Shown here: positions 13,685 through 35,108 of the stretch, in pieces
How the letters are laid out: every line of letters starts with the position of its first letter
How positions within the stretch are numbered: the stretch's first letter is position 1
DNA from: Endomicrobiales bacterium
Lineage (GTDB): Bacteria; Elusimicrobiota; Endomicrobiia; Endomicrobiales; JALOBY01
Assembly: GCA_963796955.1 (NCBI GenBank)
Contig: CAWCNJ010000005.1
Location: forward strand, 160,001-224,000
Length of the DNA stretch: 64,000 bases
Direction of reading: 5' to 3'
Position numbers and translations under genes: made by a program
The notes under the pieces: model-generated
Told to the model about the DNA's origin: nothing
Database searches by the model: none
The model's input: the letters and a program-made list of their open reading frames with translations, nothing else

Positions 13685-13726
13685 ATTTGGAAGGAAGTGA
13701 GTAGAAGTATACATACCGCCCTTTGT

Positions 13727-14025: not shown

Positions 14026-14126
14026 TGGGCCACAGTGCGACGAATAGGAGCACAAGCTTGTGGCGGGCGCTTGATGAAAACGCACCGGAACCACATCCTG
14101 GACAGACTGTAACGAACGTAGTGAGT

Positions 14127-14165
14127 GGAAGGATGGCCGAGTGGTTTAAGGCGCTAGTCTTGAAA
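14127..14165 (+). pseudogene. 5' half of tRNA-Ser(TGA) ending at the anticodon loop (att-like junction)
   Basis: 38/39 identical to 18188-18226; ends in CTTGAAA. Confidence 0.9.
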
Positions 14166-14318
14166 TCCTCCCGACGGTAAAACAGCAATTCCGACGACAA
14201 CCCCAAATCCCACGTTTTACCGACGACAAAAGCCATCTTGCGCATTAATGACAACCTTGCATGCTTGTACCCATTTGTAACCCAAATGGACACCTACTGG
14301 ACACCTGATAGACACCTG

Positions 14319-14348
14319 AAACCTTGATAGAAATATCAGGGTTTTTTT
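14319..14348 (+). terminator. Rho-independent terminator
   Basis: AAACCTTGAT..ATCAGGGTTT hairpin plus T-run. Confidence 0.6.
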
Positions 14349-14775
14349 AATCCGTTGGCCCCATTACGTATAAGTTTACCAACGTTTTTCCCAATTACTG
14401 TGTAATTGTAAAACGTTGGAACGTCAACAAAAACGGAATTGGTATGTCAAGGGGGAGGGATACAGGGTGTTTGAGACGTAGAGCTATGTATCGGCCTTAT
14501 AAAAACAACTTCTAGTTAAACATATAGAGGTCACAGGCAATTTTTCAGTAAAAACGGCACGGAATAGGCAAAAACATGGACGCGCCTATTTCGACGTAAG
14601 GAGTTATGCAAAATGTCGTAACCTTAAAGTCCAAGTCCGTGGTGAGATCATTGAAGTGCCATGTCAGTTGTCAAAACGCTATCATAGAGGTACAATACAG
14701 CTAGAAGATCATTTCTATTGGGGAGAAAATCATAAATCATCGGAACATCCAATAGCAAATGTGGCGTAAATATAG

Positions 14776-14913
14776 CAATACGTAGAGGACTTTAATAAAA
14801 TTCCTGATGACGAATGGTATAAATTCATCCAGGCAAATACCAGTTTCGCAAACTGGAATGAGATGCAGAATAAAGCGGCGGGTGAGTGGGGTGCGAAAAA
14901 GATGGGCCTGTAA
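14776..14913 (+). pseudogene. C-terminal remnant of a small hypothetical protein
   Basis: Startless frame VEDFNKIPDDEWYKFIQANTSFANWNEMQNKAAGEWGAKKMGL* ending 8 bp before the next ATG. Confidence 0.45.
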
Positions 14914-14921
14914 AGGGGTGA

Positions 14922-16094
14922 TTGGCAATGAATACACAATCCGCAGATCTTCTCATTAAATTTCTAGAAAGTGATGGTGTCAAATATCCACGAATCAGAG
15001 CGGGCAACGTTGATTTTCAGGAATATATTACCAGTATTTATCAGCAATATATTAAGGAGGTCAAAGACCACGCCGATGCCTTGAATGCTTTGGGATTAAT
15101 TGTTGATGACGAATTGCCATTTTTAATAAGCCAAATGGGAGCTATAAATGATGCATTAGAGGCATATTTGAAGGGACAACCCGCAAAAGCCTATAATTTT
15201 ATAGCGAAGTGGATGGATGATAATCGAAATGCATATCAAATACTTCAACCGAATTATGCGCAATACGAAGATCAAGTTGTTTCTCTGTACCGTATAAGGG
15301 AAATAAAATCCGAGGAAATAATAACAGAACCAAAAAACATGTTTCATGTGCCTTTTGAAAAAAGACATAAGATTAAGAGATATAGGTTTAGTATTCCAGG
15401 GTATCCATGTTTATATGCCGGTTCATCAGTTTATGCAAGTTGTCAAGAATTAAATGGTGTGTCGCTTAGTAATATATGTGCAATATTGTTAAAACCTACA
15501 GAAAAAAATATCAAAATTCTTGATTTTGGAATAACACCCAAACGGATCGCAGCATGCATAAGGAATATAGTGAAGGATGGTAATCAACATATATTACAAC
15601 GTGAACAAAACTGTAAGGATATTAAAGCACGGATTCTTATGTGGCCAATGCAAGTCGTAAGTATGCTTGAAGTTTTATATAAAGAGGAGCCATTTGTTCC
15701 AGAATACATAATACCACAACTTCTTCTTCAATATATACAAGATGATAAATATGGTAATCAAGTTATTTCGGGGATACGTTATTATTCAACGAAGTGCCAT
15801 ATACAAAATGACAATACAAGATTGGGTTGTAATTATGTATTTCCTGTTAAAACAATTAAAAAACAAGGATATTGTGCAAGCCTTATAAATCTATATCATG
15901 CTTCAGATCTAATTAATTATGCTGAATACATAAAAGGGAAACATTGGGGAACTCCTAGATCGTCAGATTCTTCCGAAGAAATTACTTTTGAGGATAACGG
16001 AATATCAAAAACCTTACCATATCTTAATACTGATATGTATACATTGGAAATGTGGCTTAACAATCTAAATAATACAGTGAGGCCAATATCGTAG
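14922..16094 (+). CDS. RES-domain-like protein
   Basis: LYRIR, RFSIPGYPCLY, ASCQE, EYIIPQL, GIRYYST pattern; low GC. Confidence 0.6.
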   Translation: MAMNTQSADLLIKFLESDGVKYPRIRAGNVDFQEYITSIYQQYIKEVKDHADALNALGLIVDDELPFLISQMGAINDALEAYLKGQPAKAYNFIAKWMDDNRNAYQILQPNYAQYEDQVVSLYRIREIKSEEIITEPKNMFHVPFEKRHKIKRYRFSIPGYPCLYAGSSVYASCQELNGVSLSNICAILLKPTEKNIKILDFGITPKRIAACIRNIVKDGNQHILQREQNCKDIKARILMWPMQVVSMLEVLYKEEPFVPEYIIPQLLLQYIQDDKYGNQVISGIRYYSTKCHIQNDNTRLGCNYVFPVKTIKKQGYCASLINLYHASDLINYAEYIKGKHWGTPRSSDSSEEITFEDNGISKTLPYLNTDMYTLEMWLNNLNNTVRPIS

Positions 16095-16211
16095 ATATTT
16101 AATCATGCCCAGTAGGTGAGTTCACGATTATTTTTTGTAATACACCTTGATAATTCAGGAACTTGATAACTCTTAAAATGATCTAAAACCAGGCACCAAC
16201 AAAGGCACATC

Positions 16212-16306
16212 CAAAGTTAACCACAAACTCCACAAGCTACTACGTTCCGCTTCGCTCTGGGAGCACGCTACACTTCGTACCTTGATGGATTTTATGGATA
16301 ACTTTG
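16212..16306. mobile_element. 95-bp MITE-like element
   Basis: 21-bp terminal inverted repeats (18/21) flanked by ACATC direct repeats at 16207-16211 and 16307-16311. Confidence 0.55.
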
Positions 16307-16326
16307 ACATCCAAGTGGGTATTAAA

Positions 16327-17187
16327 TTATTTAATTTTTGTAAGAAGATTTTTAATTACTTCAACGGTTCTTTTTCTCAAGAAACCTTTCTCAAAGCTGC
16401 CGGGCAACAAGGCAAGTTCTTCAATTCCCTTTGGCCCGCGTGACGCCTCGGTTCTAAAATATTTCGTCAAGTTATCACAGAAATGGTTAAACATATCAGG
16501 ATCCTGGCTCTTATATCCTTTAAGCTTTGTATAAAATGCTTCTTTATTGGCTTCGGGAATATATTCAGCAACATAATATACTGACCACAGATCCTTCTTG
16601 AACTTATACTCGCCGTCTTTGCCTTTTACATCGCGTTCAGCGCAGGCAAGCCCTTTAAGGTAGAGATAAGCGGCAGGTACAGGTATTGTAACCTGGGCAG
16701 ATAACTTCCCAACCGTTACATCCGCCTTCATAAGGCTGGTTTTATCAAGCAGTATTTCCGTATATCCCATAGGTGCAACGTCTACGCCGTGTCCGGCAAC
16801 CCTTTCAATGAGCTTTGGGTCCATCAGCTCATGGCTTATAAGGTCTATCTTCATTTTTAACTCGCCGTTTACTACGGTGTAGCCAAACGGTTCAGCTTCT
16901 TTGGAGTATACTCTCCGTTTTGTATAAATAGCTTTGTGCGAAAACATCTCGGCCAGGGGTATTCCCTTAAACCCAAAGTTTTCTCTTACGGCATAGTCTA
17001 TGTCCGTTGTAGCCATTATGCGTGCGGTGCCAGGGTTTTTCCATACAAAATGCGTGTAAATGAACGGCAGCCAGCCGCCCACAAGAATAACATTGTCTTT
17101 ATACGGCTCCATATCTTTAAGAACTTGTACAAAAAGAGCCTCAGGGCTTATTTCAGGCTTGCCAGTGGAGGAATGAGCCATGTTCAC
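16327..17187 (-). CDS. Nucleotidyltransferase-fold protein (AbiEii/GSU2403-like)
   Basis: ILVGGW, TTDID, P.PAAYLYLK, KKD motifs. Confidence 0.7.
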   Translation of the reverse strand: MNMAHSSTGKPEISPEALFVQVLKDMEPYKDNVILVGGWLPFIYTHFVWKNPGTARIMATTDIDYAVRENFGFKGIPLAEMFSHKAIYTKRRVYSKEAEPFGYTVVNGELKMKIDLISHELMDPKLIERVAGHGVDVAPMGYTEILLDKTSLMKADVTVGKLSAQVTIPVPAAYLYLKGLACAERDVKGKDGEYKFKKDLWSVYYVAEYIPEANKEAFYTKLKGYKSQDPDMFNHFCDNLTKYFRTEASRGPKGIEELALLPGSFEKGFLRKRTVEVIKNLLTKIK

Positions 17188-17863
17188 CTCTTAAAATATT
17201 TTCCATGTGTGAGGCTTGTTGCAGAGCCATGGGATCCTTTGAAGATTTCATGCTCAGATAAGCGTAGAAATCCGGCGTAACGTGCGATCCTGGATTATAT
17301 ATTTCGGAGAGTTTATTAAGAAACCTGTGATATCTTGGCAAAACAATTTCTATATCGCCACCATGATGAACCTTGTTAATTCCGAGTTTTAGCTGTAGTT
17401 CCTGCTGTTTGTACCCGGCAAACCATTCGCGTTCAGGTATAAGTATGGTCAGCCGGTTATCCCGCACTTCTCTAAGGGCTGGCCTTACACCCTGCATACC
17501 ACCAATAAAAAACTTAATGTTTAATGATATAAGGTGCTTTATAATGTCATTATGCGAAAGCTTTGAAACATACTGGAACTGTTTCAACCTGTTATCAGCG
17601 AAGCCTTCAACGCACAGGGCAAGCAACCGTTTAGGGTTAATCAACCTTGACCCGCTATTGGGCCCACGGGCGGCAAGGCTTCTTACGATGATGCGATCTG
17701 CTATCAGAAGATTGAAGAACTCTACAACGTCACTATTCTTGTAACCCTTAAAATCAAGCGTTGACCAAACGGTAGCATCTTTATGATTGCCTGGCGCTGT
17801 CGCCTTCATAAGCATCTCATAAGCTATGCCAAGGTAGGACGATTTAATCTTTAAAAAGCCCAT
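17153..17863 (-). CDS. Hypothetical protein, probable antitoxin-like partner of the nucleotidyltransferase
   Basis: 236-aa ORF overlapping the nucleotidyltransferase start. Confidence 0.55.
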   Translation of the reverse strand: MGFLKIKSSYLGIAYEMLMKATAPGNHKDATVWSTLDFKGYKNSDVVEFFNLLIADRIIVRSLAARGPNSGSRLINPKRLLALCVEGFADNRLKQFQYVSKLSHNDIIKHLISLNIKFFIGGMQGVRPALREVRDNRLTILIPEREWFAGYKQQELQLKLGINKVHHGGDIEIVLPRYHRFLNKLSEIYNPGSHVTPDFYAYLSMKSSKDPMALQQASHMENILRGEHGSFLHWQA

Positions 17864-18187
17864 ATAGGCCCCTTTTTATATATTCCCCTTTTAGACACAT
17901 ATAATAAAGGGAATATATCTATTACCTTTATAGCATACGCTATCAAATATTGCAATGATTACGATTAGTACATCCGCACGTTTCTTGAGAAAGTCCTTAA
18001 AGAATGCTATACTGCCACCGATGTTAAATATGTAGTATGCCTGCTCTGAAAGATTTGTACAAATGGAAGGATGGGCGCGTGTTGCGACGAACAGGAGCAA
18101 CGAGAAACGCGCGGGCACCGCAGCAGAGCGAGGATGCCCCGGACGAGACAGAAAGTCAGCGTAAGCTTAGAAGATAGCGTAACAAAT

Positions 18188-18275
18188 GGAAGGATGGCCG
18201 AGCGGTTTAAGGCGCTAGTCTTGAAAACTAGTGTAGGGTTATACTCTACCGGGGGTTCAAATCCCTCTCCTTCCG
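18188..18275 (+). tRNA. tRNA-Ser(TGA), CCA not encoded
   Basis: GGAAGGA/TCCTTCC acceptor stem, CTAGT-CTTGAAA-ACTAG anticodon arm, long variable arm, GGTTCAAATCC T-arm, G discriminator. Confidence 0.95.
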
Positions 18276-18475
18276 TTGTTTTTTGTCTGGGCCACGGGCC
18301 CATACAAAAAACAACTAATTGGCCAGGGATTTGAAGCTGACCCGACCGCTGCCGCGTAGGCAGAAAAAGGGAGGGCAGCCGATTGCGGGTGAGGGTACGA
18401 AGTACCCGATGGAGCAAAAATCCCTCTCCTTCCGTATCATTTTTCAATCAGTTTTGAGTTGTAGAAATCGCACCT

Positions 18476-18597
18476 AAAAACACCCCGTTTTACCGTCTTG
18501 TGTCCGATTTGTGACGTGTCGTTGCGTCACAAGCCTAAAAAATGCAGAAAATCATAAAAATCTTACGCTCACTTTTTAGTGACCGTAGGATTTTTTT
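18476..18597 (+). repeat. ~120-bp att-proximal block (putative arm sites plus terminator), second copy at ~34947-35067
   Basis: Shared AAAAACACCCCGTTTTACCGTCTTGTGTCCGATTTGTGACGTGTC...AAAATCTTACGCTCAC..GTGACCGTAGGATTTTTT. Confidence 0.85.
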
Positions 18598-18663
18598 GTT
18601 GCCGAAATCCCCTCACCCGTTTACTGTGTTAGTAGGAAGTAAAATCGAGCAAGGGAGAAAAAC

Positions 18664-19404
18664 ATGGGCAACCAGCAAATAGTTTTCAGGGAGTACACTA
18701 AAGATATATTCCCAATCTTCAACGGCTACGGCGTTGCCATCCACACAATCGCGGCATCATGTAAAGATCCAGCCAAAGCTGTAATAGAACATTCTTTCGG
18801 CCGCGATGAGGGCTTAAATGAATTTGTTGAGCTAGGTGATATTATCGAAGCATACAGACTGGGCCTGAACAATATTCAGCCGTACAAGAATCGCGACTAC
18901 TCGTTTATTATAAACAACGGTAACGCACCAGACGAACAGGTAATGTTTAAAGAAATAAAAACTACGTCCGCCGAAAAGAAGTTTCAACTAAAGTGGCAAA
19001 CTTCCTTCGGAAGGAAAAAGCGGGCAACCTACAGCTGGGGCTGGATGAACAGGGTAATGTTCAGCTCATACACCGAAACCATGGAGCAAAGCAGCAGCCT
19101 TAAACTAAATTATCCTACCGGAAAGCTGAAGCTGCGTATATTCCTGCCAAAGCTATTTCCGCTGGACGAAAACCCATGCCTTGAAATGCAAAATTCCAAA
19201 GGCCAGAAGGCCAGGCTGCGCATTACAAACGAAGTAGGAGTTCTAAAAGAAGACATAGGCTTCAGCCTAAAAGTTAAGGAAGACTTTAAGTGCTACCAAA
19301 TCGAGATCTTCCGCCCCAACGTCAATGAAACCTACAAAATCACATGGTCGATGGGTGTAAAAGCCCTACCAAAGTATCTGGCCTGGCTTGAGTCCAGGGT
19401 ATAG
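18664..19404 (+). CDS. Hypothetical protein
   Basis: 246-aa ORF with GGGAG RBS. Confidence 0.65.
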   Translation: MGNQQIVFREYTKDIFPIFNGYGVAIHTIAASCKDPAKAVIEHSFGRDEGLNEFVELGDIIEAYRLGLNNIQPYKNRDYSFIINNGNAPDEQVMFKEIKTTSAEKKFQLKWQTSFGRKKRATYSWGWMNRVMFSSYTETMEQSSSLKLNYPTGKLKLRIFLPKLFPLDENPCLEMQNSKGQKARLRITNEVGVLKEDIGFSLKVKEDFKCYQIEIFRPNVNETYKITWSMGVKALPKYLAWLESRV

Positions 19405-19413
19405 GAGCTACTT

Positions 19414-19644
19414 ATGCATATAAAAGCGATAGTGTTGTTAATGGAAGCCCCAACACAAAACAAAAGCGTTTTGCCCACCCGCGAAGATTGGGCATCCCTG
19501 CGCCAAGCAGTAAAGCAAAAGACCGGCTATAACGAAGATGAGGCCGTCCAAGACTACATCATGGACAAGCTTGGCACCCAAAACCTGCAACTTGTCTCTG
19601 GCCAAGAAGTAAGGCAGCTAATCACACTACTAAAAGCAGCGTAA
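19414..19644 (+). CDS. Hypothetical protein
   Basis: AGGAG RBS, operonic spacing. Confidence 0.5.
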   Translation: MHIKAIVLLMEAPTQNKSVLPTREDWASLRQAVKQKTGYNEDEAVQDYIMDKLGTQNLQLVSGQEVRQLITLLKAA

Positions 19645-19668
19645 TCAAAGCGAACCAGGAGATATCAA

Positions 19669-20055
19669 TTGAAAAGACAACTTGAACAAAAACTCCTTAA
19701 AAGATTTTCCGGACTATTTAAAAGCACCACGCTGTATTGTGAGTGCAGTGATGGCTGGTATCACATTTTGTGGCGAATATTTGAGCAAATAGAGGAATCG
19801 TTGAAGAAGGAAAACAAGGGGTTTTGTGATCAACTATTTATTCACCAGGTCAAAGAAAAGTTTGGCAGGCTAAAAATATACATGTACGGAGGAAACGAAT
19901 CGATTAACAAAATAATCCAGCAAGCCGAAGCCGATTCCCGCAAGGTCTGCGAGCTATGTGGCAAACCCGGAAAATTACGAAGTATAAGGGGCTTACTGTC
20001 TACGTTGTGCGATGGTTGCTGTACCAAACTCCAAAAGCGTCGCAACCGGCTCTAA
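19669..20055 (+). CDS. Phage-like hypothetical protein with Zn-finger-type Cys pairs
   Basis: DGWY, QVKEKFG.L, CELCG, CDGC; AGGAG RBS before TTG. Confidence 0.65.
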   Translation: MKRQLEQKLLKRFSGLFKSTTLYCECSDGWYHILWRIFEQIEESLKKENKGFCDQLFIHQVKEKFGRLKIYMYGGNESINKIIQQAEADSRKVCELCGKPGKLRSIRGLLSTLCDGCCTKLQKRRNRL

Positions 20056-20160
20056 ATTGTTGAAATATCATCTCTAAAGAGGTATCATAATCTAGACGGA
20101 TGAAGCCATAATTGGGGAATTAATGTATCATCAACATACAAGTACGATATAGCAAAGATT

Positions 20161-20187
20161 AAAACCACCTTCAAGGGTGGTTTTTTG
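20161..20187 (+). terminator. Intrinsic terminator directly upstream of hsdM
   Basis: AAAACCACC-TTCAAG-GGTGGTTTTTT. Confidence 0.7.
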
Positions 20188-20223
20188 TAGTTTTAATAAG
20201 CTTAAAATAATAAAGGAATATCA

Positions 20224-22605
20224 ATGGCGATTAAAAAATCACAACTCTATAGTTCAATCTGGAAAAGCTGCGATGAACTTCGCGGCGGGATGGATGCGTC
20301 TCAGTACAAGGACTATGTGCTGGTGTTGTTGTTTATCAAATACATCTCTGATAAATATGCCGGTGTTTCGTTTGCGCCGATAACGGTTCCTAAAGGCGCA
20401 AGTTTCAAGGACATGGTTGCGCTAAAGGGAAAGCCAACCATCGGTGATGATATTAACAAGAAGATTATCCAGAAAATTGAGGAAGCAAACAAGTCACTGG
20501 GCAAGATATCAGTAAATTTTAATGATCCAGAAAAGCTGGGTAGTGATAGTGCAATGGTTGATAGACTGACTAGGCTTATTGCAATATTTGAGAATCCCGC
20601 ACTCGATTTCAGTAAAAACCGTGCGGAAGGTGATGACATTCTTGGCGATGCCTATGAATACCTGATGCGACACTTTGCCACAGAAAGTGGTAAAAGCAAA
20701 GGACAATTCTATACGCCTGCTGAGGTTAGCCGAATTATTGCCAAGATTATTGGTATTGCTAGTACTACTAACAAAACGCCGACGGTGTATGACCCCACGT
20801 GTGGTTCTGGATCATTGCTGTTAAAAGTGGCAGATGAAACAGACAAGAATGTAAGGCTTTTTGGACAGGAAAATGAAGGCCCTACCGCCGCTTTGGCACG
20901 CATGAATATGGTTTTGCATAATAATCCAACAGCGGTCATCGAGAAAGAAAATACCCTAGCCACCCCACTATTTAAAGATGGGGATCAACTTAAAACGTTT
21001 GACTTTGTGGTAGCCAATCCGCCATTCTCCTACAAATCGTGGAGCAACGGCGTTAATGCAGAGAATGACCCTTTCGGAAGATTTCAGGGCTTTGGCGTAC
21101 CTCCTACAAAGAATGGTGACTACGCGTTTCTGCTCCATATAATCCGTTCAATCAAGACCACTGGTAAGGGTGCGTGTATTCTGCCTCACGGTGTGCTGTT
21201 TCGCGGCAATGCCGAGGCCGAGATACGAACCAACATCATCCGTCGAGGCTACATCAAAGGCATAATAGGTCTGCCAGCAAACCTTTTCTATGGCACGGGC
21301 ATACCTGCTTGTATTATCGTGATAGACAAGGAAAATGCCGACAATCGTAAAGGTATCTTTATGATAGATGCCGGCAAAGGTTTTGAAAAAGATGGCAACA
21401 AAAACCGCCTGCGTGCCCAGGATATTCATAAGATCGTTGATGTGTTCAATAAACAGATAGAAATACCCAAATATTCGCGCATGGTAAGCGTTGTTGAAAT
21501 TGAGAAGAATGAGTTTAACCTTAACATCCCGCGCTACATTGATAGCCAGGAGCCAGAAGACATACAGGATATCGAAGCACACCTGAAAGGTGGCATCCCA
21601 AATCAAGATATTGCTGACCTTAATAATTATTGGGATGTATATCCAACTCTTAAGGCTTCGCTGTTTAAGTCGAGCGAGAGAAAAGGATATAGTGCGCTAA
21701 AAATCACCCAGGAAGAGATTAAGTCTAAAATATTCTCTCACCCAGAATTTACTGCATACGCCAAAACAATGGAAGCAACATTCGACGCATGGAGAACGAA
21801 AAACACTGCTGTTCTCAAAAAGCTTTCGGTTGATGCTATACCAAAGAAAGTAATCCATCAAATATCCGAACATCTACTGGACACTTTCAGTAAAACAAAG
21901 TTAATTGATAAGTACGACATTTACGAACACCTTATGGAGTACTGGGCAGCAACCATGCAAGATGATATGTACTTGATAGCCGCCGATGGCTGGCATGTCG
22001 TGCTTGCTCCCGTTGAAGGCAAGAAGGGCGTGCTAGAGTGTGACTTGGTTCCTAAGTGCCTTGTTATCAATCGCTATTTCTCCAAAGAGATGAAGGAAAT
22101 AGAGGAACTGCATCTCAAGTTGGACGCCACCGCACGTGATATGGAAGAACTTGTCGAAGAGCATAGTGGTGATGATGGATATTTTGCAGACTTTGAGAAA
22201 ATCAATAAAGCAAGCGTCTTAGAGAGAGCCAAAGAAATTAAAGGCAAGAAAGCAGATATTGCCGAACTTGAAGTAATGGAAAAATATCTTGAGATTAGTG
22301 CAACTGAGTCTGACACCAAGAAGAACCTCAAAGAATCTGAAAAGGCAGTTGAGGCAAGCGTAGTTGCTAAATATGAAATGCTTACAGAACCAGATATCAA
22401 GATACTGGTTGTTGAAGATAAGTGGATGACAGCTCTCGAACAGGCAGTTCATGGTGAAATGGATCGTATTAGCCACCGGCTTAACGGCCGCATTAAAGAA
22501 CTTGCTGAACGCTATGAAACGCCAATGCCAGCACTCACCACTGAAACCGAATCACTTGCCAACAAAGTAGATGAACACCTCAGAAAAATGGGGTTTACGT
22601 GGTAA
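20224..22605 (+). CDS. hsdM: Type I R-M methyltransferase subunit
   Basis: GQFYTP, YDPTCGSGSLL, ANPPF, PHGVLFRG. Confidence 0.95.
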   Translation: MAIKKSQLYSSIWKSCDELRGGMDASQYKDYVLVLLFIKYISDKYAGVSFAPITVPKGASFKDMVALKGKPTIGDDINKKIIQKIEEANKSLGKISVNFNDPEKLGSDSAMVDRLTRLIAIFENPALDFSKNRAEGDDILGDAYEYLMRHFATESGKSKGQFYTPAEVSRIIAKIIGIASTTNKTPTVYDPTCGSGSLLLKVADETDKNVRLFGQENEGPTAALARMNMVLHNNPTAVIEKENTLATPLFKDGDQLKTFDFVVANPPFSYKSWSNGVNAENDPFGRFQGFGVPPTKNGDYAFLLHIIRSIKTTGKGACILPHGVLFRGNAEAEIRTNIIRRGYIKGIIGLPANLFYGTGIPACIIVIDKENADNRKGIFMIDAGKGFEKDGNKNRLRAQDIHKIVDVFNKQIEIPKYSRMVSVVEIEKNEFNLNIPRYIDSQEPEDIQDIEAHLKGGIPNQDIADLNNYWDVYPTLKASLFKSSERKGYSALKITQEEIKSKIFSHPEFTAYAKTMEATFDAWRTKNTAVLKKLSVDAIPKKVIHQISEHLLDTFSKTKLIDKYDIYEHLMEYWAATMQDDMYLIAADGWHVVLAPVEGKKGVLECDLVPKCLVINRYFSKEMKEIEELHLKLDATARDMEELVEEHSGDDGYFADFEKINKASVLERAKEIKGKKADIAELEVMEKYLEISATESDTKKNLKESEKAVEASVVAKYEMLTEPDIKILVVEDKWMTALEQAVHGEMDRISHRLNGRIKELAERYETPMPALTTETESLANKVDEHLRKMGFTW

Positions 22606-26344: not shown

Positions 26345-29300
26345 TGTTGGTCAAATTGAGCGTATAACCCAAAACCGTGTTGTAGCCTTGTTTCGAGATC
26401 AGCTTGATTATAAGTATCTTGGAAATTGGGAGGATCAACCTAACAATAGCAATATTGTGGAAGCCGAGGTCAGAAAGTATTTGACTGGGCGTGGGTATAG
26501 TGATGCTTTGATAGCACGTGCATTGGACAAGCTGCGTGATGCGGCCAATAACTATGGAGAAAGCCTATACACAAATAACCAGAATGTATATAAGCTTCTC
26601 CGATATGGCATTGGTATTGTAGAAAGTGCAGGAGAAAACCATGAGCAAGTGCACCTGATAGACTGGAAGCATCCTGAGAAAAACAATTTTGCTATAGCTG
26701 AAGAAGTAACAATTATGGGAAACCGCGAAAAACGGCCCGACATAGTGTTGTATGTAAATGGCATTGCTATTGGTGTGCTTGAACTGAAACGTAGCACCGT
26801 ATCCATAGGTGACGGTATACGCCAAAGCATAGTCAATCAACAAAAAGAGTTTATAGAGTCTTTCTTCTCAACAGTACAGTTTGTTTTCGCAGGCAACGAT
26901 ACCGAGGGTCTAAGGTATGGAACAATTAAGACCCCAGAAAAGTATTTTTTAAACTGGAAAGAAGACGAGCAGAATAGTAGTATGCTGCAGTTGGACAAAT
27001 ACCTGCTTAAAATGTGTAACAAAGAAAGACTGTTGGAAATAATATACGACTTTGTGCTTTTTGATGGCGGCTACAAAAAGTTGCCACGGCCACACCAATA
27101 CTTTGGTATTAAAGCAGCACAAGAATATGTCCGCCGGCGTGAAGGCGGCATAATATGGCATACGCAGGGTAGCGGTAAAAGCTTAGTAATGGTTTGGCTT
27201 GCAAAGTGGATTCTGGAAAACAACCCAAATGCTCGTGTTGTGGTGTTAACAGATCGCATTGAGTTAGACAAACAAATTGAGCGTGTGTTCCGTGATGCCG
27301 GTGAGGTGGGGATTAAGCGTACTATAAGCGGTACTGATTTGATGGGACAACTTAGCCAACCGTTGCCGCGCTTGCTGTGTTCCCTTATACATAAGTTTGG
27401 TGTGAGGGATGTGGCGAACTTTGATGCATATATTAAAGAGCTGCAGAATGCGCCTAGCAGTACTGTGGGTGAGCTGTTTGTGTTTGTTGATGAATGTCAT
27501 CGGTCTGAGTCTGGCAAACTGCATAAAGCTATGAAGGCGATACTCAGGAATGCGGTATTCATAGGTTTTACGGGTACACCGCTTCTTAAGAAGGACAAGC
27601 AAACAAGCAGGGAAGTTTTCGGTAAATATATTCACACATACAAATTTAACGAGGCTGTAGAGGATGGGGTTGTATTAGATTTGGTGTATGAAGCCCGCGA
27701 TATTGATACGAAATTATCATCAAACGATAAAGTGGATGCATGGTTTGAAGCAAAGACGAAAGGACTTAATGACTTTCAAAAACATGAGCTCAAGAAGAAG
27801 TGGGGTACGATGCAGCAAGTACTCAGCTCTAAATCGCGCTTAGATAAGATTGTACAGGATGTGGTGTTTGATTTTAGCACTAGGCCGCGCCTGAGTTCAG
27901 ACTTCGGGAATGCGATAGTGGTTGCAGGTAGCATTTATGAAGCAACTAGATACTTTGAGATGTTTCAGAATACCTCACTTAAAGGCAAATGTGCCTTGAT
28001 TACCTCGTATAACCCTGCCACAAAAGATATTACAACCGAAGGCACAGGTGACAATACAGAAACTGGCAAAGAATACGTGTATAAAATGTACACTGCATTG
28101 TTGAACGATGTTGTGGCAGAACCGGGTAAAACTAAATCTGAAACGTACGAAGATAGGGCTAAACTGAAGTTTATTACTGAGCCCGCAAATATGAAACTGC
28201 TTGTCGTTGTTGATAAGCTGCTGGTAGGATTTGATGCGCCGCCATGTACTTACCTTTATATAGATAAGAATATGCAGGATCATGGCTTGTTTCAGGCAAT
28301 TTGCCGCGTGAATCGGCTGCATACGGAAGATAAGGACTTTGGATATATTGTTGATTACAAAGATTTATTTTCTAAACTCGGTGATGCATACAAGGTATAT
28401 GCAACGGAATTGGATGACCTCGGAAATGACACAACAAATATTGATATTGTGTTAAAGGATAGGTTGGCAAAAGGCAAGGAACGGTTGGACGATGCTCTGG
28501 AAGCTGTTGCCCTTGTTTGTGAGCCTGTGTTGCCTCCAAGGGACAACCTGGCCTACATTCACTATTTCTGCGGTAATCCAGAGAGTAAGCAAGACCTTAA
28601 GGATACCGAGGTAAGACGAAATGCATTGTACAAGAATACTGTTGCCCTGATACGCGCCTATGCCAATATTGCGGATGAGATGAGCGAAGCCGGCTACAGC
28701 ACCAGCGAAATTGACGGTGTTAAGAAATCACTAACTAAATATTTAAATCTCAGAGAAGAGATTAGGATGGCTAGTGGGGAAAAGCTTGACCTTAAGACCT
28801 ATGAAGCTGATATGCGGCACTTGATTGATACCTATATTCAGGCCGAGGATAGCAGGCGAATAGATCCATTCGAAAATCAGTCTCTGCTAGATATTATGGT
28901 TAATAGCGGCATTGCTGATGCCATAAAAAGCCTTCCTGATGGTATACGAAGCAGTAAAGAAGCAATGCAGGAGACGATTGAAAACAATGTACGCGTTAAA
29001 ATAATTAAAGATCATTTAATTGACCCGGCGTACTTTGATGAGATGTCTAAGCTATTAAACGAAATTATACGAGAAAGAAAAGAGAAGGCGGTAACGTATG
29101 AGGAATACCTGAAAAGGATTGCCGAATTGGCAAAACGCGTTGCCAATCTTACACGGAATGATTTGCCGGCTCGTATACAGACGGGAGCGCAGCGGGCCTT
29201 ATACGATAATCTTGAAAGAAAGACTGAGCTGGCAATAGATGTTGATACCTCAGTAAGAGAACATGTGCGTGCTGATTGGCGTGGGAATGTGCCTGCGGAA

Positions 29301-29432
29301 AATTTGATAAAACAGGGAATTTATGAAGTTCTGCACGATAAAGAAGAAGTTGAAAGAATTTTCCAAATTAAATGTACGGTGTCAGACTTAAGTAACTTAA
29401 GTAAATTGACTTTTCTGGCAGAAAATAGATAA
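26337..29432 (+). CDS. hsdR: Type I R-M restriction subunit; last residues replaced by inserted element sequence
   Basis: RPDIVLYVNG..ELK, HTQGSGKS, DECHR, FTGTP, QAICRVNR. Confidence 0.95.
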   Translation: MNSVGQIERITQNRVVALFRDQLDYKYLGNWEDQPNNSNIVEAEVRKYLTGRGYSDALIARALDKLRDAANNYGESLYTNNQNVYKLLRYGIGIVESAGENHEQVHLIDWKHPEKNNFAIAEEVTIMGNREKRPDIVLYVNGIAIGVLELKRSTVSIGDGIRQSIVNQQKEFIESFFSTVQFVFAGNDTEGLRYGTIKTPEKYFLNWKEDEQNSSMLQLDKYLLKMCNKERLLEIIYDFVLFDGGYKKLPRPHQYFGIKAAQEYVRRREGGIIWHTQGSGKSLVMVWLAKWILENNPNARVVVLTDRIELDKQIERVFRDAGEVGIKRTISGTDLMGQLSQPLPRLLCSLIHKFGVRDVANFDAYIKELQNAPSSTVGELFVFVDECHRSESGKLHKAMKAILRNAVFIGFTGTPLLKKDKQTSREVFGKYIHTYKFNEAVEDGVVLDLVYEARDIDTKLSSNDKVDAWFEAKTKGLNDFQKHELKKKWGTMQQVLSSKSRLDKIVQDVVFDFSTRPRLSSDFGNAIVVAGSIYEATRYFEMFQNTSLKGKCALITSYNPATKDITTEGTGDNTETGKEYVYKMYTALLNDVVAEPGKTKSETYEDRAKLKFITEPANMKLLVVVDKLLVGFDAPPCTYLYIDKNMQDHGLFQAICRVNRLHTEDKDFGYIVDYKDLFSKLGDAYKVYATELDDLGNDTTNIDIVLKDRLAKGKERLDDALEAVALVCEPVLPPRDNLAYIHYFCGNPESKQDLKDTEVRRNALYKNTVALIRAYANIADEMSEAGYSTSEIDGVKKSLTKYLNLREEIRMASGEKLDLKTYEADMRHLIDTYIQAEDSRRIDPFENQSLLDIMVNSGIADAIKSLPDGIRSSKEAMQETIENNVRVKIIKDHLIDPAYFDEMSKLLNEIIRERKEKAVTYEEYLKRIAELAKRVANLTRNDLPARIQTGAQRALYDNLERKTELAIDVDTSVREHVRADWRGNVPAENLIKQGIYEVLHDKEEVERIFQIKCTVSDLSNLSKLTFLAENR

Positions 29433-30326
29433 AATCTGGTATGCCCAGACACCCGAGAATACACCAACCGGAGTTGTTGTTCCACGTAATGGCGCGTGGG
29501 AATAACAAACAGAAGATATTCAACTCGCCGAAAGATTACACTACCTTCCTGTCGATGTTGCGCGACACAAAGCAACGTTATCATTTCAAATTGTACGCCT
29601 ACGCTCTGATGCCTAACCACATCCATTTGCTGATCCAGGTAGGCGAACATCCAAGCGCCCGCATTATGCAGTCGGTGCTTACTGGCTATGCAAGATATTA
29701 CAACCGGGCGTATAAACGCAGCGGGCATCTTTTCCAGGGAAGATATAAGGCGATCCTTTGCGAGAGAGATGCTTATGCCATGTGGCTTGTGAGATATATC
29801 CACCTTAACCCTGTAAGAGCGCATCTTGTTGGTGTGGTCGATCAATGGAGGTGGACGGGCCATGCTGAATATGCCGGCACCGAAAAACAGGATATGATAG
29901 ACGCTGGTGTGGTTGCAGAGTTGTTTGGCAAAGGATCAATGGGGCTGCTAATTACAGGGAATATTTATCAGACGGTCTTGCTCAGGGGTGTAAATACGAT
30001 GAAGACCTCCATCCATCTGATAGTTCACCGTTTTTAGGGAGTGATCGTTTCAAGGAAGAAGTGGTATATAAAGTTGATCAACTCGTTGAAACCAAGCGCA
30101 AGTCGTTACGTGATATAATCCTTGAGCAGACGCAAGATACCGGTGTAAGCCCTGAAATGGTCCTTGGAAAGAGCAGGAAGAAGAAGGTCGCAATGATTCG
30201 TAGAAATGTAATAATCAAAGCTGTGACAGAATATGGATATATAGCTTCGGAGCTAGCCAGGCAGTTAAATCGCAGCGAGGCGTATATCAGTATGGTAGTT
30301 AGTTAAGTTACTTAAGTCTGACACCG
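29377..30326. mobile_element. 950-bp HUH/Y1-transposase element with perfect 24-bp terminal inverted repeats
   Basis: CGGTGTCAGACTTAAGTAACTTAA at 29377-29400; exact reverse complement at 30303-30326. Confidence 0.85.
29441..30306 (+). pseudogene. RAYT-like Y1 (HUH) transposase with C-terminal HTH, frameshifted near 29940
   Basis: FHVMARGNN, LMPNHIHLL, GHLFQGRY, YIHLNPVRA; a second frame continues to an HTH (ASELARQLNRSEAYIS) and stops inside the right IR. Confidence 0.85.
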
Positions 30327-30893
30327 CCGGACTTAACATTTATCTTTACCGGATTACGGGCAGGCGAACTATTGTTTTTGGAGTGGGAAGACGTGGATTT
30401 TGAGAACAATGTTATAAATGTGCGTGAAAAGGACATTTGGCTTCCGAAAACCTACGAGCGCCGGGAAATCCCCTTGCATCCAGATCTGAAAACGATATTG
30501 TTGAGGCGAAAGAAGACAAAGAAAAACGAGTTCGTATGCTTTAAGAGCTCCGGCGACAGAGCAACCGAGAAAATACGAAGAAAACCCTGTGAAGGCAGCA
30601 CATACAGAATACTGTACGCCAAATATAAGCGCACACTTGCAAAGGCAGGCATCACAGATGCCGGCCTGCACACACTGCGCCATACCTTCGGCAGCCAATG
30701 CGTGATGAATGGAATAGATGTGCCCACCCTCTCAAAGATCATGGGCCACTCAAGCATCAAAACAACCATGATTTATGTCCACCTCTCAACCGACCACATG
30801 CAAAGCTCCATTCTGAAACTGGGCTATGAAAGCCCCGATTATGACAAGCGGTGCGGCCCAGATGAAGGCAGCGGTGCCGGGGTCAGTGTGTAA
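30327..30893 (+). pseudogene. Tyrosine recombinase, catalytic domain only (N-terminus lost)
   Basis: FTGLRAGELLFLEWEDVD begins just after the IR; HTLRH, MGHSS, TMIY. Confidence 0.85.
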
Positions 30894-30923
30894 GTGACAG
30901 TACTACAAAATATTGAGGTGATC

Positions 30924-31973
30924 ATGAAATACATTTGGCAGACGAAACAATGGCCGCATTTCACATGGGATAGTGCAGTGTTGTTGCCTTTGATCGGGCA
31001 GGCGCGGCGTGCGCAGAGCGGGTTGCTTGCTAACGTGAAGCGCCTTGGCATATATCAACTCAAGGAAACGCAGCAGATTGCGCTGTCAGAGGAGGTTATA
31101 GCCACATCCGTGTTCGAAAGGGAGCCGTTGAACAGGCAAAGCGTTCGCTCAACTATAGCCCGGCGTCTTGGATTGCCTTCAGCAGACTTTGAACCCAAGG
31201 AAAGCTTAGGTGACAACCTCGCGGATGTTTTGCTTGACGCAACGCAGAATCATGCGGCGCCTTTGACGATCAAGCGTATCCATGGCTGGCAGGCTACGTT
31301 GTTTCCAAATTCAGGAGGAGAATGCTCCCTGCGCGATAGTGAGTTACCGCCCTCTGATGATATTTCCCGTATGACGAATGAGTTTCTGAATTGGTGGGAT
31401 ACAAGCAAATCTACTGTTGATGGGCTACTTCGCGCGGCGATCGCGCATTTCTACTTTGCTACAATTTATCCTTTTGAGGATGGCAATGGTATAATTGCGC
31501 GTGCAATAACAGATATGGCTCTGGCGCAAGACGAAAAGTTTCGCCTGCGATATTACAGTCTTTCTTCTCAGATATTGAAAGAGCGTAACTCATATTACCA
31601 AACACTGGAACGTTCCGTGAAGACCGAGTCTACTGATATCACTGAGTGGTTGGTCTGGTTCCTAAGCTGTTATCAACGCGCTATTGCCCGTTCAGCAATG
31701 CTCCTTGATCCTATTCTTCGCAAGGCTAACTTCTGGCAACTGCACGCCCAAGCCGGGTTGAGCGAACGGCAATGGGAAGCAATCAATGGAGTCCTTGACT
31801 CCGGCACAAAGAATTCCCCAGAAGTGCTTACAACGCAAAAATATGTGAGTTTTACAAAAACCAGCCGGGCAACCGCTATCCGTGAAATCAAAGCCCTGCT
31901 AGAAAAGAACGTCGTGCGCCAGGTAGGCGAGATTGGCCGGTATGTCCATTATGACCTTGTCTGGCCGCAGTAG
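30924..31973 (+). CDS. Fic-family protein (DUF4172-type) with degenerate active site
   Basis: YIWQ...WP.F.WD N-terminus; YPFEDGNGIIAR instead of HPFxDGNGRxxR. Confidence 0.8.
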   Translation: MKYIWQTKQWPHFTWDSAVLLPLIGQARRAQSGLLANVKRLGIYQLKETQQIALSEEVIATSVFEREPLNRQSVRSTIARRLGLPSADFEPKESLGDNLADVLLDATQNHAAPLTIKRIHGWQATLFPNSGGECSLRDSELPPSDDISRMTNEFLNWWDTSKSTVDGLLRAAIAHFYFATIYPFEDGNGIIARAITDMALAQDEKFRLRYYSLSSQILKERNSYYQTLERSVKTESTDITEWLVWFLSCYQRAIARSAMLLDPILRKANFWQLHAQAGLSERQWEAINGVLDSGTKNSPEVLTTQKYVSFTKTSRATAIREIKALLEKNVVRQVGEIGRYVHYDLVWPQ

Positions 31974-32076
31974 GGGTGGCTCAGGACGGTAGTATGCAGA
32001 TTATGATAGTTAGCCTTGTGAAAGCTCGGGAAAAGATATAAAATTAACTCATATCCCACATTCTTAAAGGATAACC

Positions 32077-33565
32077 ATGCAGAGTTACAAAGTATTTGTC
32101 AGCGCGAATCAGACGGAACTCAAAAATGAACGGGCTGCGATAAGGGACATTATACTGCACAGCCCGGGGATGGAGGGTTATTTTAACGTCTTCCTTTTTG
32201 AGGATATGCCTGCGAAAGGTAAAGCCCCCGCCGCCACATACTTAAAGCAGGTTGAGAATAGCGATATTTACATAGGTATTTTTGGCAATGAATATGGGAT
32301 TAAAGGAAAGGATGGTCTTTCCGCGACCGAAAGAGAGTTCCGCGAGTTCATCGCGAAGAAGTCGGGCGGCGAGACCCTTATTTTCCTTAAAGGAACAGAT
32401 GACTCCAAACGCGACAAAGATACCAGCAAGCTGATTAAATATGTGAAAGACAATTGCATCTATAAACGTTTTTCAAATATCGATGAACTTCAAAAACATG
32501 TTCTAAGCAGTCTTATAACTTTCCTGCGAGATAAGGGAAAGCTAAGCAAACTGTCTTTTGATGAACGGGTTTGCGATGAAGCGACATACAGCGATATTGA
32601 TGAAAACGAGGTTAAAGAATACCTGCAGGAACGGGCAGTTAAACTCAAGGTAGCTGTCCCCAAGGTGCCAGTAAAGAACTTCCTGACCAGAACGCTCAAA
32701 GTTGTGCAGGAAACAGACGGTGTGTTACGGCCTACCAATGCCGGCCTCCTATTCTTCGGCAAGAACCCGACCGAATTTATATCCCAGCACGAAATCAGAA
32801 TAGCGCGTTTTAAGGGTACGGATAGAATAGAATTCCTTGATTCGCAGGAAATAACCGGTCCGATCTACAAAATGCTGGACGATGTTGAGAAATTTTTTAA
32901 AAGAAATACCCGCCTGGCGAATAAAATTGTTGAGTTCAAACGCGTAGATATCCCAGAATATCCCTTCGAGGCTATCAGAGAAGCAGTAATAAATGCCATC
33001 GCCCATAGAGATTACAACCAGCAGGGTGCGCCAATAATTATTTCTATATTCGATGACAGAGCAGAGATTAGCAACCCTGGCGGTCTGCTACCAGGCCTAG
33101 ACATAAAGGATCTGGAAGGACACCATAAAACGCGCAACAAAATTATTTGCTCAATATTCCACGAAAACAAAAGATATGGAGCGCTTCGGCACCGGCATAA
33201 AAAAGATGAAGCGCCTTATGAAAGAGCACGGCCTGTCCGCCCCTAAGTTTGTAGAAGAAGGCGATTTCTTTGTGGCACGGTTTTACAGCCCGGGTGATAA
33301 GATACTTGATTTGGTGCCGAGTATTCCCAACGAACGGGTTACAGACTTGAAAGAATTAGGGTTAAATGAAAGACAGATAGAATCTTTGAGACTTATGGTC
33401 AATGAAAATAAATCAATGGGGATAATGGAATACTCCAATAGGTTTAATGTCAACGAAAAAACTACCCGTCGTGATCTAAAGGAAATGATTTCGCTCGGGC
33501 TTGTAGAAAAAGTTGGTTCAACAAAAAAAGTATTTTTTAAGGCCAAACACAGATTACCGAAATAA
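32077..33565 (+). pseudogene. DUF4062-like + RecG-C/HATPase-like + HTH protein, frameshift at ~33165
   Basis: VFVS..ELKNER, REAVINAIAHRDY, SNPGGL; MERFGTGI and the HTH are in the next frame. Confidence 0.75.
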
Positions 33566-33644
33566 CTAAAAAATGTCCGCAATAATGTCCGAAATTGCAA
33601 ATGTCCGTAATAACTAAAAAATGTCCGTAATAATGTCCGAAATA
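33561..33644 (+). repeat. AATGTCCG repeat cluster (5 copies)
   Basis: Direct reading; includes a ~35-bp block repeated 48 bp apart. Confidence 0.85.
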
Positions 33645-33714
33645 GATTTTGTTCAATTTCGCAGACACCGTCTGCGGAATTAATGACTATAAAATACGAG
33701 ACACTGTCTCGTAT

Positions 33715-33756
33715 TTTGTCATACAAACAGCGATATTGTTGTAAATGTATGACAAA
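33715..33756. promoter_or_regulatory. Inverted-repeat operator TTTGTCATACA-N20-TGTATGACAAA, copy 1
   Basis: Same arms and spacing as 35118-35159. Confidence 0.7.
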
Positions 33757-33784
33757 TAATTTGACCATGTAACTGAAAAAGGAT

Positions 33785-34495
33785 GTGATGATAAAATTTG
33801 GCATCAGGCAATCATTCGATAAAATCGAGCAAATTGAAGACAGGTACGCAAAGGTAGGTGTGCCTGTGGAATTGGCGCTGCCTTTTTACTGGGATATTTA
33901 TGAGCCGGTTCGGCCGCACTTGGGTGAGATCGCTGATAAGATCAGATCGTATGGCACAGAAGTGCTAAGCGTTCACGCAGTTCAGGCAACTATAACAGAT
34001 GAACGGTTCAGGGTGTGGGGCAGGGAAGTAGCCGATTTTGCAAAAGCAGTGGGTGCGGCGACCATTATGTTGCATCCTAACAATGTTAAGAAAGACACTA
34101 CTGTGCAGGGTGTGGCGCTCAAGAATCTTGAGTATTTTACCGATTTATATAAAAACGACATAGTATTCAGTATCGAGACCTTTGAAGGTAACAGGCGTGT
34201 GTTTACACCCGATGAAATTACTTCTTTCAATCTGCCAATGACGTTGGACACATCACACATCCGAAGCAATGAGAAGATCTGGGGTTTTCTCAAAGGCTAC
34301 AAAGACCGCATTAACACTATTCATTTGTCGGCCAGGGACGGTGCCAAGCAGCATTTACCAATAGATGAATTTTGCAAAGAAATAGTGCGGTACTTGATTG
34401 ACAACAAATGGAACGGGAATATAATTTTAGAATATCTGTTTGAGTACCACGGTCAGATGAAACAGGATTTGGAATTATTAAAGGCAATGAAGTAA
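33785..34495 (+). CDS. Xylose-isomerase-like/AP endonuclease 2 TIM-barrel protein
   Basis: SVHA, LHP, SIET, TLDTSH, IHLS, HLP, ILE metal-ligand pattern. Confidence 0.75.
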   Translation: MMIKFGIRQSFDKIEQIEDRYAKVGVPVELALPFYWDIYEPVRPHLGEIADKIRSYGTEVLSVHAVQATITDERFRVWGREVADFAKAVGAATIMLHPNNVKKDTTVQGVALKNLEYFTDLYKNDIVFSIETFEGNRRVFTPDEITSFNLPMTLDTSHIRSNEKIWGFLKGYKDRINTIHLSARDGAKQHLPIDEFCKEIVRYLIDNKWNGNIILEYLFEYHGQMKQDLELLKAMK

Positions 34496-34508
34496 TTGTG
34501 CAAGGAAG

Positions 34509-34616
34509 CTACAGAGAAAACCACGGAGAAAACTACGGAGAAAAATGTCGGAAAAAGTAAGGTGTAAAGTAGGGTGTAAAGTAAGGTGAAAAGTAAGGTG
34601 TAAAGTAACGGAAAAG
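34509..34616 (+). repeat. Nine tandem 12-bp units of two types
   Basis: CYACRGAGAAAA x3, a transition unit, GTARGGTGWAAA x4, a final variant. Confidence 0.85.
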
Positions 34617-34793
34617 TTCTCTCCCTTTCGGGCTTGTGACGTGACATATTGCAAAAAGTCTTTTGTGTCCGATTTGTGACGTAAGGGTGTTCGTTTGATG
34701 GCGTTTAGTGGCATTTCCTGGCATTTGTTGTCACCCAAGAAATCATTGAAAATACGCGTAAAATAGCGTTTTGAGAGTGAGTGCTCTGAAGGA

Positions 34794-34849
34794 CTTGAAA
34801 ACTAGTGTAGGGTTATACTCTACCGGGGGTTCAAATCCCTCTCCTTCCG
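34794..34849 (+). repeat. attR-like 3' half of tRNA-Ser starting at the anticodon loop
   Basis: Identical to 18220-18275. Confidence 0.95.
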
Positions 34850-35108
34850 ACCGAGTTGCCCTGAGCCGTCGCTGCCTTTTAGCGACGAGCGAAACGAGGG
34901 AGTCCCCGGAGGGGGCGTCCGAATTCCAGCCTGATTTTCCTTACATAAAAAACACCCCGTTTTACCGTCTTGTGTCCGATTTGTGACGTGTCATTGCCTC
35001 ACAAGCCCGAAAAATTGATAAAATTATGAAAATCTTACGCTCACTTTTGGTGACCGTAGGATTTTTTAGGTTATGCAACTATACTTACATATAGTAATTT
35101 GAAAGGGC

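What the first reader, a model, noticed from the sequence alone, without database searches (positions are those of the whole stretch)
14127..34849. tRNA-Ser hit from both sides: orphan 5' half and orphan 3' half meet at the same 7-bp anticodon loop, with an intact gene between them
Seen: the 5' half ends in CTTGAAA (14165), the 3' half starts with CTTGAAA (34794), and together they rebuild a full tRNA. The intact gene at 18188 has its own copy of the promoter and a 144-bp leader. GACGGTAAAAC at 14173 is the reverse complement of GTTTTACCGTC at 18487 and 34959. Known: tyrosine integrases commonly cross over in the anticodon loop and usually restore the 3' part. Inference: either one 20.6-kb element that splits the tRNA and carries a full replacement, or a rare 5'-restoring 4-kb element in tandem with a normal 3'-restoring island. 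Three excision products are predicted.
Basis: partly seen in the sequence, partly recalled or inferred. Interest (0 to 1): 0.75.

Follow-up and report, generated by a model that had tools for sequence, protein, structure and literature searches.

The report
Two island families flanking one tRNA
A bacterium's only serine(UGA) tRNA gene has leftover halves of itself on both sides, likely because two different families of now-defunct mobile islands cut it at the same anticodon loop from opposite sides, and the right-hand family appears to have switched from restoring the front half of the gene to restoring the back half.

Summary
In detail: orphan 5' half 14127-14165, intact tRNA-Ser(TGA) 18188-18275, orphan 3' half 34794-34849. 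The left junction's arm matches 5'-restoring islands in two same-phylum genomes (G063, G067) in motif and spacing. The arms, integrase fragment and gene order of 18220-34800 match a different island (G004), whose integrase falls in a separate clade. A single element would be a hybrid of the two families. 5'-fragment islands are known (159 of 3919 in Islander) and common at this tRNA (at least 119 GTDB hits). This scan already noted a both-sided case at tRNA-Leu (e1-5034353). The '144-bp leader' is mostly a tRNA-associated mini-insert. No intact island integrase was found in this 81%-complete assembly. One new point: the right island restores the 3' half, while its nearest relative restores the 5' half of tRNA-Ser(CGA). 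It keeps a probable decayed 5' half, 11 bp shorter, and one downstream arm is shifted by exactly 49 bp, the length of the 3' half. This suggests a switch through an attP holding a whole tRNA. It rests on one comparison.

The parts
12316..12358 (+). Remnant of a family-A fragment-side arm; likely relic of an older 5'-restoring island
   Evidence: 93% identical to 14255-14297
13727..13755 (+). Sigma70-like promoter, left copy
   Evidence: 88% like the right copy
13779..13887 (+). Family-A P arm (sites at 13802 and 13813); probably the 3' stub of a G063-type integrase gene
   Evidence: Spacing -118/-107 from the loop once 239 bp of inserts are subtracted, vs -116/-105 in G063 and -124/-113 in G067. 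Reads LGSRIDTQWT vs LGVKMDTIWT, weak alone (E 0.056)
13888..14126 (+). Two tRNA-associated mini-inserts (123 and 116 bp), each starting with a copy of the tRNA 5' end
14127..14165 (+). Orphan 5' half of tRNA-Ser(TGA), ending with the loop at 14159-14165
14166..14349 (+). Family-A fragment-side (P') arm with CCGACG motifs and three GACACC sites
   Evidence: Matches G063 arm (0 of 2000 shuffles) and G067 arm (p 0.006); sites at +129/+140/+151 vs +129/+140 in G067
14922..17863 (.). Cargo of the 4.06-kb left unit: 390-aa ORF with no family, nucleotidyltransferase (NTP_transf_8) and a 236-aa partner; no integrase
17985..18013 (+). Sigma70-like promoter of the intact gene
18065..18187 (+). Mini-insert, identical to 13888-14010 (the '144-bp leader')
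18188..18275 (+). Intact tRNA-Ser(TGA), the shared junction of both islands (loop 18220-18226)
18276..18435 (+). 160-bp mini-insert ending in a 17-bp copy of the tRNA 3' end; related inserts follow other tRNAs of the genome
18436..18597 (+). Family-B P' arm (paired TTGTG sites at 18498 and 18509)
   Evidence: 25 of 29 identical to the G004 attL arm, 0 of 2000 shuffles
18664..19404 (+). 246-aa ORF with no family; two homologs in the G004 island
   Evidence: 35% and 37% identity
20224..29432 (+). Type I restriction-modification genes (HsdM, HsdS, HsdR) with a PDC-S06-like ATPase between HsdS and HsdR
29377..30326 (+). Y1 (IS200-like) transposon with 28-bp terminal inverted repeats; clips the HsdR end and abuts the integrase fragment
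30327..30893 (+). C-terminal catalytic fragment of the family-B tyrosine integrase (P0001); N-terminal half missing
   Evidence: 53% to the G004 integrase; clade support 100/97
33785..34495 (+). AP_endonuc_2-like ORF; homolog near the same end of the G004 island
   Evidence: 27%
34634..34772 (+). Family-B P arm (sites at 34663 and 34674)
   Evidence: 74% over 70 bp to the arm before the intact G004 tRNA; spacing -131/-120 vs -142/-131
34773..34793 (+). 21-nt stretch where G004 has its 32-nt tRNA 5' half; probable decayed 5' half
   Evidence: p 0.011 by shuffle, 0.0025 vs window 21-mers; p 0.66 against this genome's own 5' half
34794..34849 (+). Orphan 3' half, starting with the loop
34850..34917 (+). 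68-bp mini-insert; tandem copies with a 68-bp period follow tRNA-Glu(CTC)
34918..35067 (+). Second family-B P' arm, start of a further island whose far end was not found
   Evidence: 91% to 18476-18596; 26 of 29 to the G004 arm at the same 51-nt offset

Best explanation
The locus is likely a tandem array of decayed genomic islands from two tyrosine-integrase families that cross over in the same 7-bp anticodon loop and share one working tRNA-Ser(TGA) gene between them. Shown: the three tRNA pieces, two distinct arm families, and their matches to natural islands in G063/G067 (family A) and G004 (family B). Inferred: family A carries a promoter and 5' half in attP, so it displaces the old 5' half upstream; at least two such events built 12.3-18.2 kb, and the 4.06-kb unit 14159-18226 has lost its integrase and its right arm. 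Family B here carries the 3' half, so its island (18220-34800, 16.6 kb, type I restriction cargo) displaced the old 3' half to 34794; a further B arm at 34918 marks another insertion. Also inferred, less firmly: family B reached 3' restoration from a 5'-restoring ancestor by capturing the 3' half and then losing its 5' half. With the B integrase truncated and the A integrase a stub, both islands are predicted to be immobile unless an integrase is supplied in trans.
For: Left arm matches G063 (0 of 2000 shuffles) and G067 (p 0.006) but not G004 (p 0.107); the arms at 18436 and 34918 match G004 (0 and 1 of 2000) but not G063/G067 (p 0.085-0.39). G063:C14 is a complete 28.7-kb island: orphan 5' half, integrase directly upstream of the intact Ser(TGA) gene, no orphan 3' half in that genome. 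The paired B motif occurs 3 times in the 2.1-Mb assembly, all in this window and on both ends of 18220-34800. The G004 island shares HsdM/S/R, the 18664 ORF, integrase, AP-endonuclease-like gene and P arm with 18.6-34.8 kb. P0001 groups with the G004 integrase (100/97), apart from G063/G067. In GTDB, 24 of 80 loci with flanks have the intact gene within 10 kb downstream, 8 of the 24 with an integrase directly upstream, 0 of 80 with an orphan 3' half; 10 of 15 further genomes have it 12.6-41 kb downstream.
Against: No family-A arm pair or integrase tail lies before 18188 (one single site at -327), so the 4-kb unit is not a canonical intact island and how it got a promoter 88% like the left one is not settled. 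The 9 bases before the loop at 34794 and the 9 after the loop at 14165 are 7 of 9 complementary (p 0.0016), and an 11-mer is shared in inverted form between left and right arms; both fit one element. TTGTGAC pairs also flank other tRNAs in 4 other genomes, so the motif alone is not family-specific. No empty site or excision junction was observed. The integrase-stub reading is weak by BLASTP alone.
Confidence: 0.75

Rival explanations
1. One 20.6-kb element inserted with only the 7-bp loop in common, split the host gene and carries a full replacement tRNA with its own promoter, as in tRNA-dependent lysogeny.
For: The outer halves rebuild a tRNA; the outer cores are symmetric, 7 of 9; the inner gene has its own promoter; shared 11-mer; the mechanism exists in actinophages (PMC10865867).
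Against: The two ends match different natural island families in separate integrase clades. The inner gene is followed by a family-B attL arm, as expected if it is a junction and not cargo. Cores beginning T-N-C are the norm after this loop: 34 of 119 GTDB hits match TCCT at 3 of 4 positions, although the pattern forced a pyrimidine at position 1. 0 of 80 GTDB loci show an orphan 3' half.
Confidence: 0.1
2. The right island is as described, but the left 4.06-kb unit arose by homologous (RecA-type) insertion or duplication through the shared promoter/leader, not by integrase action at the loop. The left junction 13779-14349 is then an attP that came in whole.
For: The left junction has both family-A arms at natural spacing, the right end has none, the promoters are 88% alike and the 144-bp stretch is identical.
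Against: Tandem 5'-restoring arrays give the same attP-like junction, as seen in G004, where another P arm precedes the orphan half. A short deletion between two ACAA copies would also remove the right arm (inference).
Confidence: 0.12
3. Assembly artefact or plain segmental duplication.
For: Metagenome-type assembly (81% complete); an identical 144-bp repeat could be mis-joined; no read spans the three loops.
Against: Breaks fall exactly at the loop, and flanks match independent natural islands at near-identical spacing. One 151-bp contig with 0 differences spans the left promoter/stub join 13677-13827 (it may be the source sample). Flanking copies differ (88%, 91%).
Confidence: 0.03

Closest known systems
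tRNA-gene islands with a displaced 5' fragment (Islander: 159 of 3919 islands, PMC4383910; Zhao & Williams 2002, seen only as a cited title)
   Same: Orphan 5' half upstream, intact gene downstream, anticodon-loop (A-site) crossover, arm repeats; complete examples in G063 and many Alphaproteobacteria.
   Different: The 4-kb unit has no integrase and no right arm, so it would fail Islander's integrase filter.
Standard 3'-restoring A-site islands and tandem arrays (Islander: 3760 with 3' fragment, 125 tandems of two or more)
   Same: Intact gene at one end, 3' half from the loop at the other, arm sites on both ends, tyrosine integrase inside, defence cargo.
   Different: Integrase truncated and central; nearest relative (G004) is 5'-restoring at Ser(CGA); a probable decayed 5' half precedes the loop.
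tRNA-dependent lysogeny (Guerrero-Bustamante & Hatfull 2024, PMC10865867)
   Same: Two tRNA halves at the outer ends with only a short core in common, and an intact same-isotype gene between them.
   Different: Here the inner gene is itself a junction with att arms, the outer arms belong to different families, and the ORFs scanned show no phage structural genes (Pfam).

Membership tests
5'-fragment tRNA island (Islander definition) | 5' fragment upstream of an intact same-strand tRNA gene | tested here: met
   14127-14165 and 18188-18275
5'-fragment tRNA island (Islander definition) | Length 2-200 kb | tested here: met
   4061 bp loop to loop; limits
5'-fragment tRNA island (Islander definition) | Integrase gene inside the interval | tested here: not met
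   No PF00589 match in 14159-18226; only a probable stub upstream at 13779. Filed as a remnant, not a full member
5'-fragment tRNA island (Islander definition) | Family arm sites at both ends | tested here: not met
   Left end has both arms, right end lacks a pair
3'-restoring A-site island | 3' fragment from the anticodon loop downstream of the intact gene | tested here: met
   34794-34849, 100%
3'-restoring A-site island | Tyrosine integrase inside | tested here: inconclusive
   C-terminal fragment only, 30327-30893, over the Pfam cut-off
3'-restoring A-site island | Matching arm sites on both ends | tested here: met
   18498/18509 and 34663/34674
3'-restoring A-site island | Excision to a circle or an empty site in a relative | not testable with these tools
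   No genome of the same genus; run X1 too shallow
tRNA-dependent lysogeny type element | Short core, tRNA not rebuilt at either outer junction | tested here: met
   True of the outer ends if taken as one element
tRNA-dependent lysogeny type element | Both ends belong to one integrase system | tested here: not met
   Different arm families and integrase clades
tRNA-dependent lysogeny type element | Replacement tRNA is cargo, required for survival of the lysogen | not testable with these tools
   Needs genetics; the gene is followed by an att arm

The most novel reading that the evidence does not exclude
Within one integrase clade the restored half of the tRNA switched. A 5'-restoring ancestor (G004 type) excised imprecisely and captured the 49-bp 3' half, giving an attP with a whole tRNA gene; the 5' half then decayed by about one helical turn, leaving a 3'-restoring island with a fossil 5' half at 34773-34793, and the target moved between Ser(CGA) and Ser(TGA). 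A whole-tRNA attP would be a bridge between 5'-restoring, 3'-restoring and replacement-tRNA systems.
Probability: 0.45. Interest if true: 0.6.

Novelty: new variant of a known kind. Interest (0 to 1): 0.4.

Why it matters
The both-sided layout is a known kind of thing and can be mistaken for a split-and-replace element; arm families are a practical way to tell the two apart. If the switch is real, it shows how integrases change which half of a tRNA they rebuild without changing the crossover site. The mBio 2024 discussion says the evolutionary link between replacement-tRNA and canonical systems is unclear; the G004 integrase with its natural attP and the window-type attP would make one step of that question testable in vitro.

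Tried and rejected
Empty-site comparison: no genome of the same genus; 37 of 41 genomes searched (G000 included) match the tRNA, and I saw no shared flanking genes in the part of the output shown for six fetched regions. Sequencing runs: one holder listed, share 0.06, no RNA holder listed; 5 and 4 contigs laid, none of this organism across a loop, no joints. Metagenome pattern scan: 36 hits, one real orphan half (L178, same flanks as G063), two whole tRNAs, the rest look like chance. Viral scans: 0 hits for the B arm, 23 loci for the right core, none followed by a tRNA 3' half, no relative of the G004 integrase. G101 hit is in coding sequence. G041 has an orphan 3' half 1.4 kb from its intact gene with no similarity to the window arms. 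G415's apparent 3' half is tRNA-Ser(GGA). My early reading that the right island is a mirror image of the left family was dropped after G004 showed a same-strand 5'-restoring relative. The T/C site is uninformative. No genomic context could be had for P0003, the closest integrase (57%). Williams 2002, Mantri & Williams 2004 and Zhao & Williams 2002 are not held, so a prior description of half-switching there cannot be excluded. Paper searches listed no title or abstract on a 5'-to-3' switch. No supplements were read.
Full report
Observation. The window holds one tRNA gene, Ser(TGA) at 18188-18275, the only one of its kind among 35 tRNAs called in the 2.1-Mb, 81%-complete assembly. Positions 1-39 recur at 14127-14165 with one mismatch and positions 33-88 recur at 34794-34849 with none. 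Both breaks share the 7-bp anticodon loop. Loop-to-loop distances are 4061 and 16574 bp. Promoter-like sites lie at 13727 and 17985. The host phylum is probably Elusimicrobiota, from a source name on a close integrase homolog.

The leader. Most of the 144-bp identical stretch is a 123-bp insert that begins with a copy of the tRNA 5' end. Related inserts sit before tRNA-Glu(TTC) and after several other tRNAs of the genome. Four more short tRNA stubs in the region come from such inserts. They must be subtracted before arm spacing is compared: 239 bp before 14127, 160 bp after 18275, 68 bp after 34849.

How common is an orphan 5' half at this loop? Flanks were fetched for 80. Of these, 24 have the intact gene downstream within 10 kb, 8 of the 24 have an integrase directly upstream of it, and 0 of 80 have an orphan 3' half. 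For 15 of the remaining 56, chosen for long contigs, whole-genome searches put the intact gene 12.6-41 kb downstream in 10, on another contig or unresolved in 4, and upstream in 1. One of them (G414) also has an orphan 3' half on another contig; short 3'-end matches in four others were not checked. Islander counts 159 islands with a 5' fragment among 3919 (PMC4383910, whole text read). A passage in PMC6563490' recombination less frequent and cites Zhao & Williams 2002.

Left side, family A. Among 401 genomes of the phylum, the orphan-5' pattern hit 4: G000, G063, G067 and a chance hit. G063:C14 is a complete 28.7-kb island: orphan half, arm with CCGACG and three GGACACC sites, cargo, integrase, two more sites, intact gene, and no orphan 3' half in the genome. 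G067 has the same parts on two contigs. The window arm 14166-14349 aligns with both (0 of 2000 shuffles; p 0.006) and its sites fall at +129/+140/+151, against +129/+140 in G067. In G063 and G067 the upstream sites are coded in the integrase C-terminal tail. Window 13779-13887 has such sites at -118/-107 after insert subtraction and reads like that tail, though BLASTP alone gives E 0.056. So the left junction looks like the joint between two tandem 5'-restoring units; a further arm remnant lies at 12316. The 4-kb unit has no integrase and no arm pair at its right end, which is the main loose end.

Right side, family B. The integrase fragment at 30327-30893 begins at the end of a Y1 transposon. 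Its best match among 401 genomes is in G004, 54%. That gene lies in a 26.3-kb island between an orphan 5' half and an intact tRNA-Ser(CGA). The island shares HsdM, HsdS, HsdR, two homologs of the 18664 ORF, the integrase, an AP-endonuclease-like gene and the terminal arm with window 18.6-34.8 kb. Its left arm is 25 of 29 and 26 of 29 identical to the window arms at 18497 and 34969, and does not match the 14166 arm (p 0.107). In a tree of 27 integrase catalytic regions, P0001, the G004 protein and P0003 form a clade (100/97) apart from G063/G067 (many other branches are weak). PF00589 finds only this fragment and one XerC/D-sized gene on another contig in G000.

Deciding between the readings. 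A single 20.6-kb element would have a family-A arm at one end and a family-B arm at the other, and a family-B attL arm directly behind its supposed cargo tRNA. The tandem reading needs no such hybrid. Against it stand the 7-of-9 symmetry of the outer cores (p 0.0016) and the shared 11-mer. The first is softened by the common T-N-C-K core after this loop. The second resembles CGACG-type motifs seen beside att sites in G063, G067, G004 and other loci; I infer a shared accessory-protein site but did not test it. tRNA-dependent lysogeny is the known model for the single-element reading (PMC10865867, abstract and discussion read).

The switch. G004 restores the 5' half; the window's family-B island restores the 3' half. 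Aligned arms show that 34773-34793 (21 nt) stands where G004 has its 32-nt 5' half, and the arm sites are 11 bp closer to the loop (-131/-120 vs -142/-131). The 21-mer resembles the G004 5' half (p 0.011 by shuffle, 0.0025 against window 21-mers) but not this genome's own (p 0.66). Downstream, the G004 sites lie at +59/+70; the 34970 copy lies at +108/+119 after insert subtraction, exactly 49 bp more, the length of the 3' half; the 18498 copy lies at +118/+129. The simplest history, inferred, is capture of the 3' half by imprecise excision followed by decay of the 5' half. Weak points: one pair of elements, modest statistics, a 49-bp shift that is not a whole number of helical turns, and no root for the direction. 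A search for the paired motif hit 7 of 401 genomes; besides G000 and G004, one has it upstream of a tRNA-Ser(GGA), three beside other tRNAs in the opposite orientation, and one has no tRNA nearby. No second 3'-restoring family-B island was found.

Verdict. Real feature; most likely two defunct island families in tandem around one tRNA. The layout is of a known kind and was noted before by this scan at tRNA-Leu in another genome (e1-5034353, not checked here). The apparent change of restored half within one integrase clade is the new element; the searches listed no paper on it, but three key papers were not held. Interest 0.4.

Noticed in passing
window 13888-14126, 18065-18187, 18276-18435, 34850-34917; G000 C2:53552-53842, C5:104465-104602, C7:9185-9402, C8, C4: Several families of 68-160-bp non-coding inserts duplicate the 5' or 3' end of tRNA genes across this genome and in relatives (L005, L006, L007, L008, L016). 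They would disturb att-arm spacing. Mechanism not studied; an earlier finding (e1-2733590) describes similar inserts in another phylum.
   Followed up: partly
window 18041-18056 and 34784-34799: The leader before the intact gene and the right core share 14 of 16 bases. Unexplained; may be a secondary att-like site.
   Followed up: no
window 29377-30326, 13649-13676, 49228-49257; G000 C4:281147: Y1-type transposon with 28-bp terminal inverted repeats; solo repeat copies follow or precede AAA-DUF4143 (PDC-S01-like) genes. G004 also has a Y1 gene and AAA-DUF4143 genes upstream of its orphan half.
   Followed up: partly
window 30841-30864 and 36901-36969: 24 bp of the integrase tail recur at 36901, followed by a piece of the family-B arm hairpin: probably a further collapsed island relic.
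   Followed up: no
L209 (G067:C69) 1446-2249 minus; L242: The integrase reading frame runs through (G067) or into (L242) the tRNA gene it regenerates.
   Followed up: no
window 32077-33565; 50546-51588: A DUF4062/RecG-C-like gene is split over two overlapping frames; an NlpC/P60 gene is duplicated in tandem (300 bp, 97%) with the first copy truncated.
   Followed up: no
window 44803-48634: LexA-like repressor, C5 methyltransferase, putative restriction gene, Vsr and DUF6998: a second defence cluster in the same low-GC region (about 12-51 kb).
   Followed up: no
G414:C2:313655-331089 and C17:20664-20727: Another genome with a 5'-restoring island at Ser(TGA) plus an orphan 3' fragment on a different contig; possibly also hit from both sides.
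   Followed up: partly
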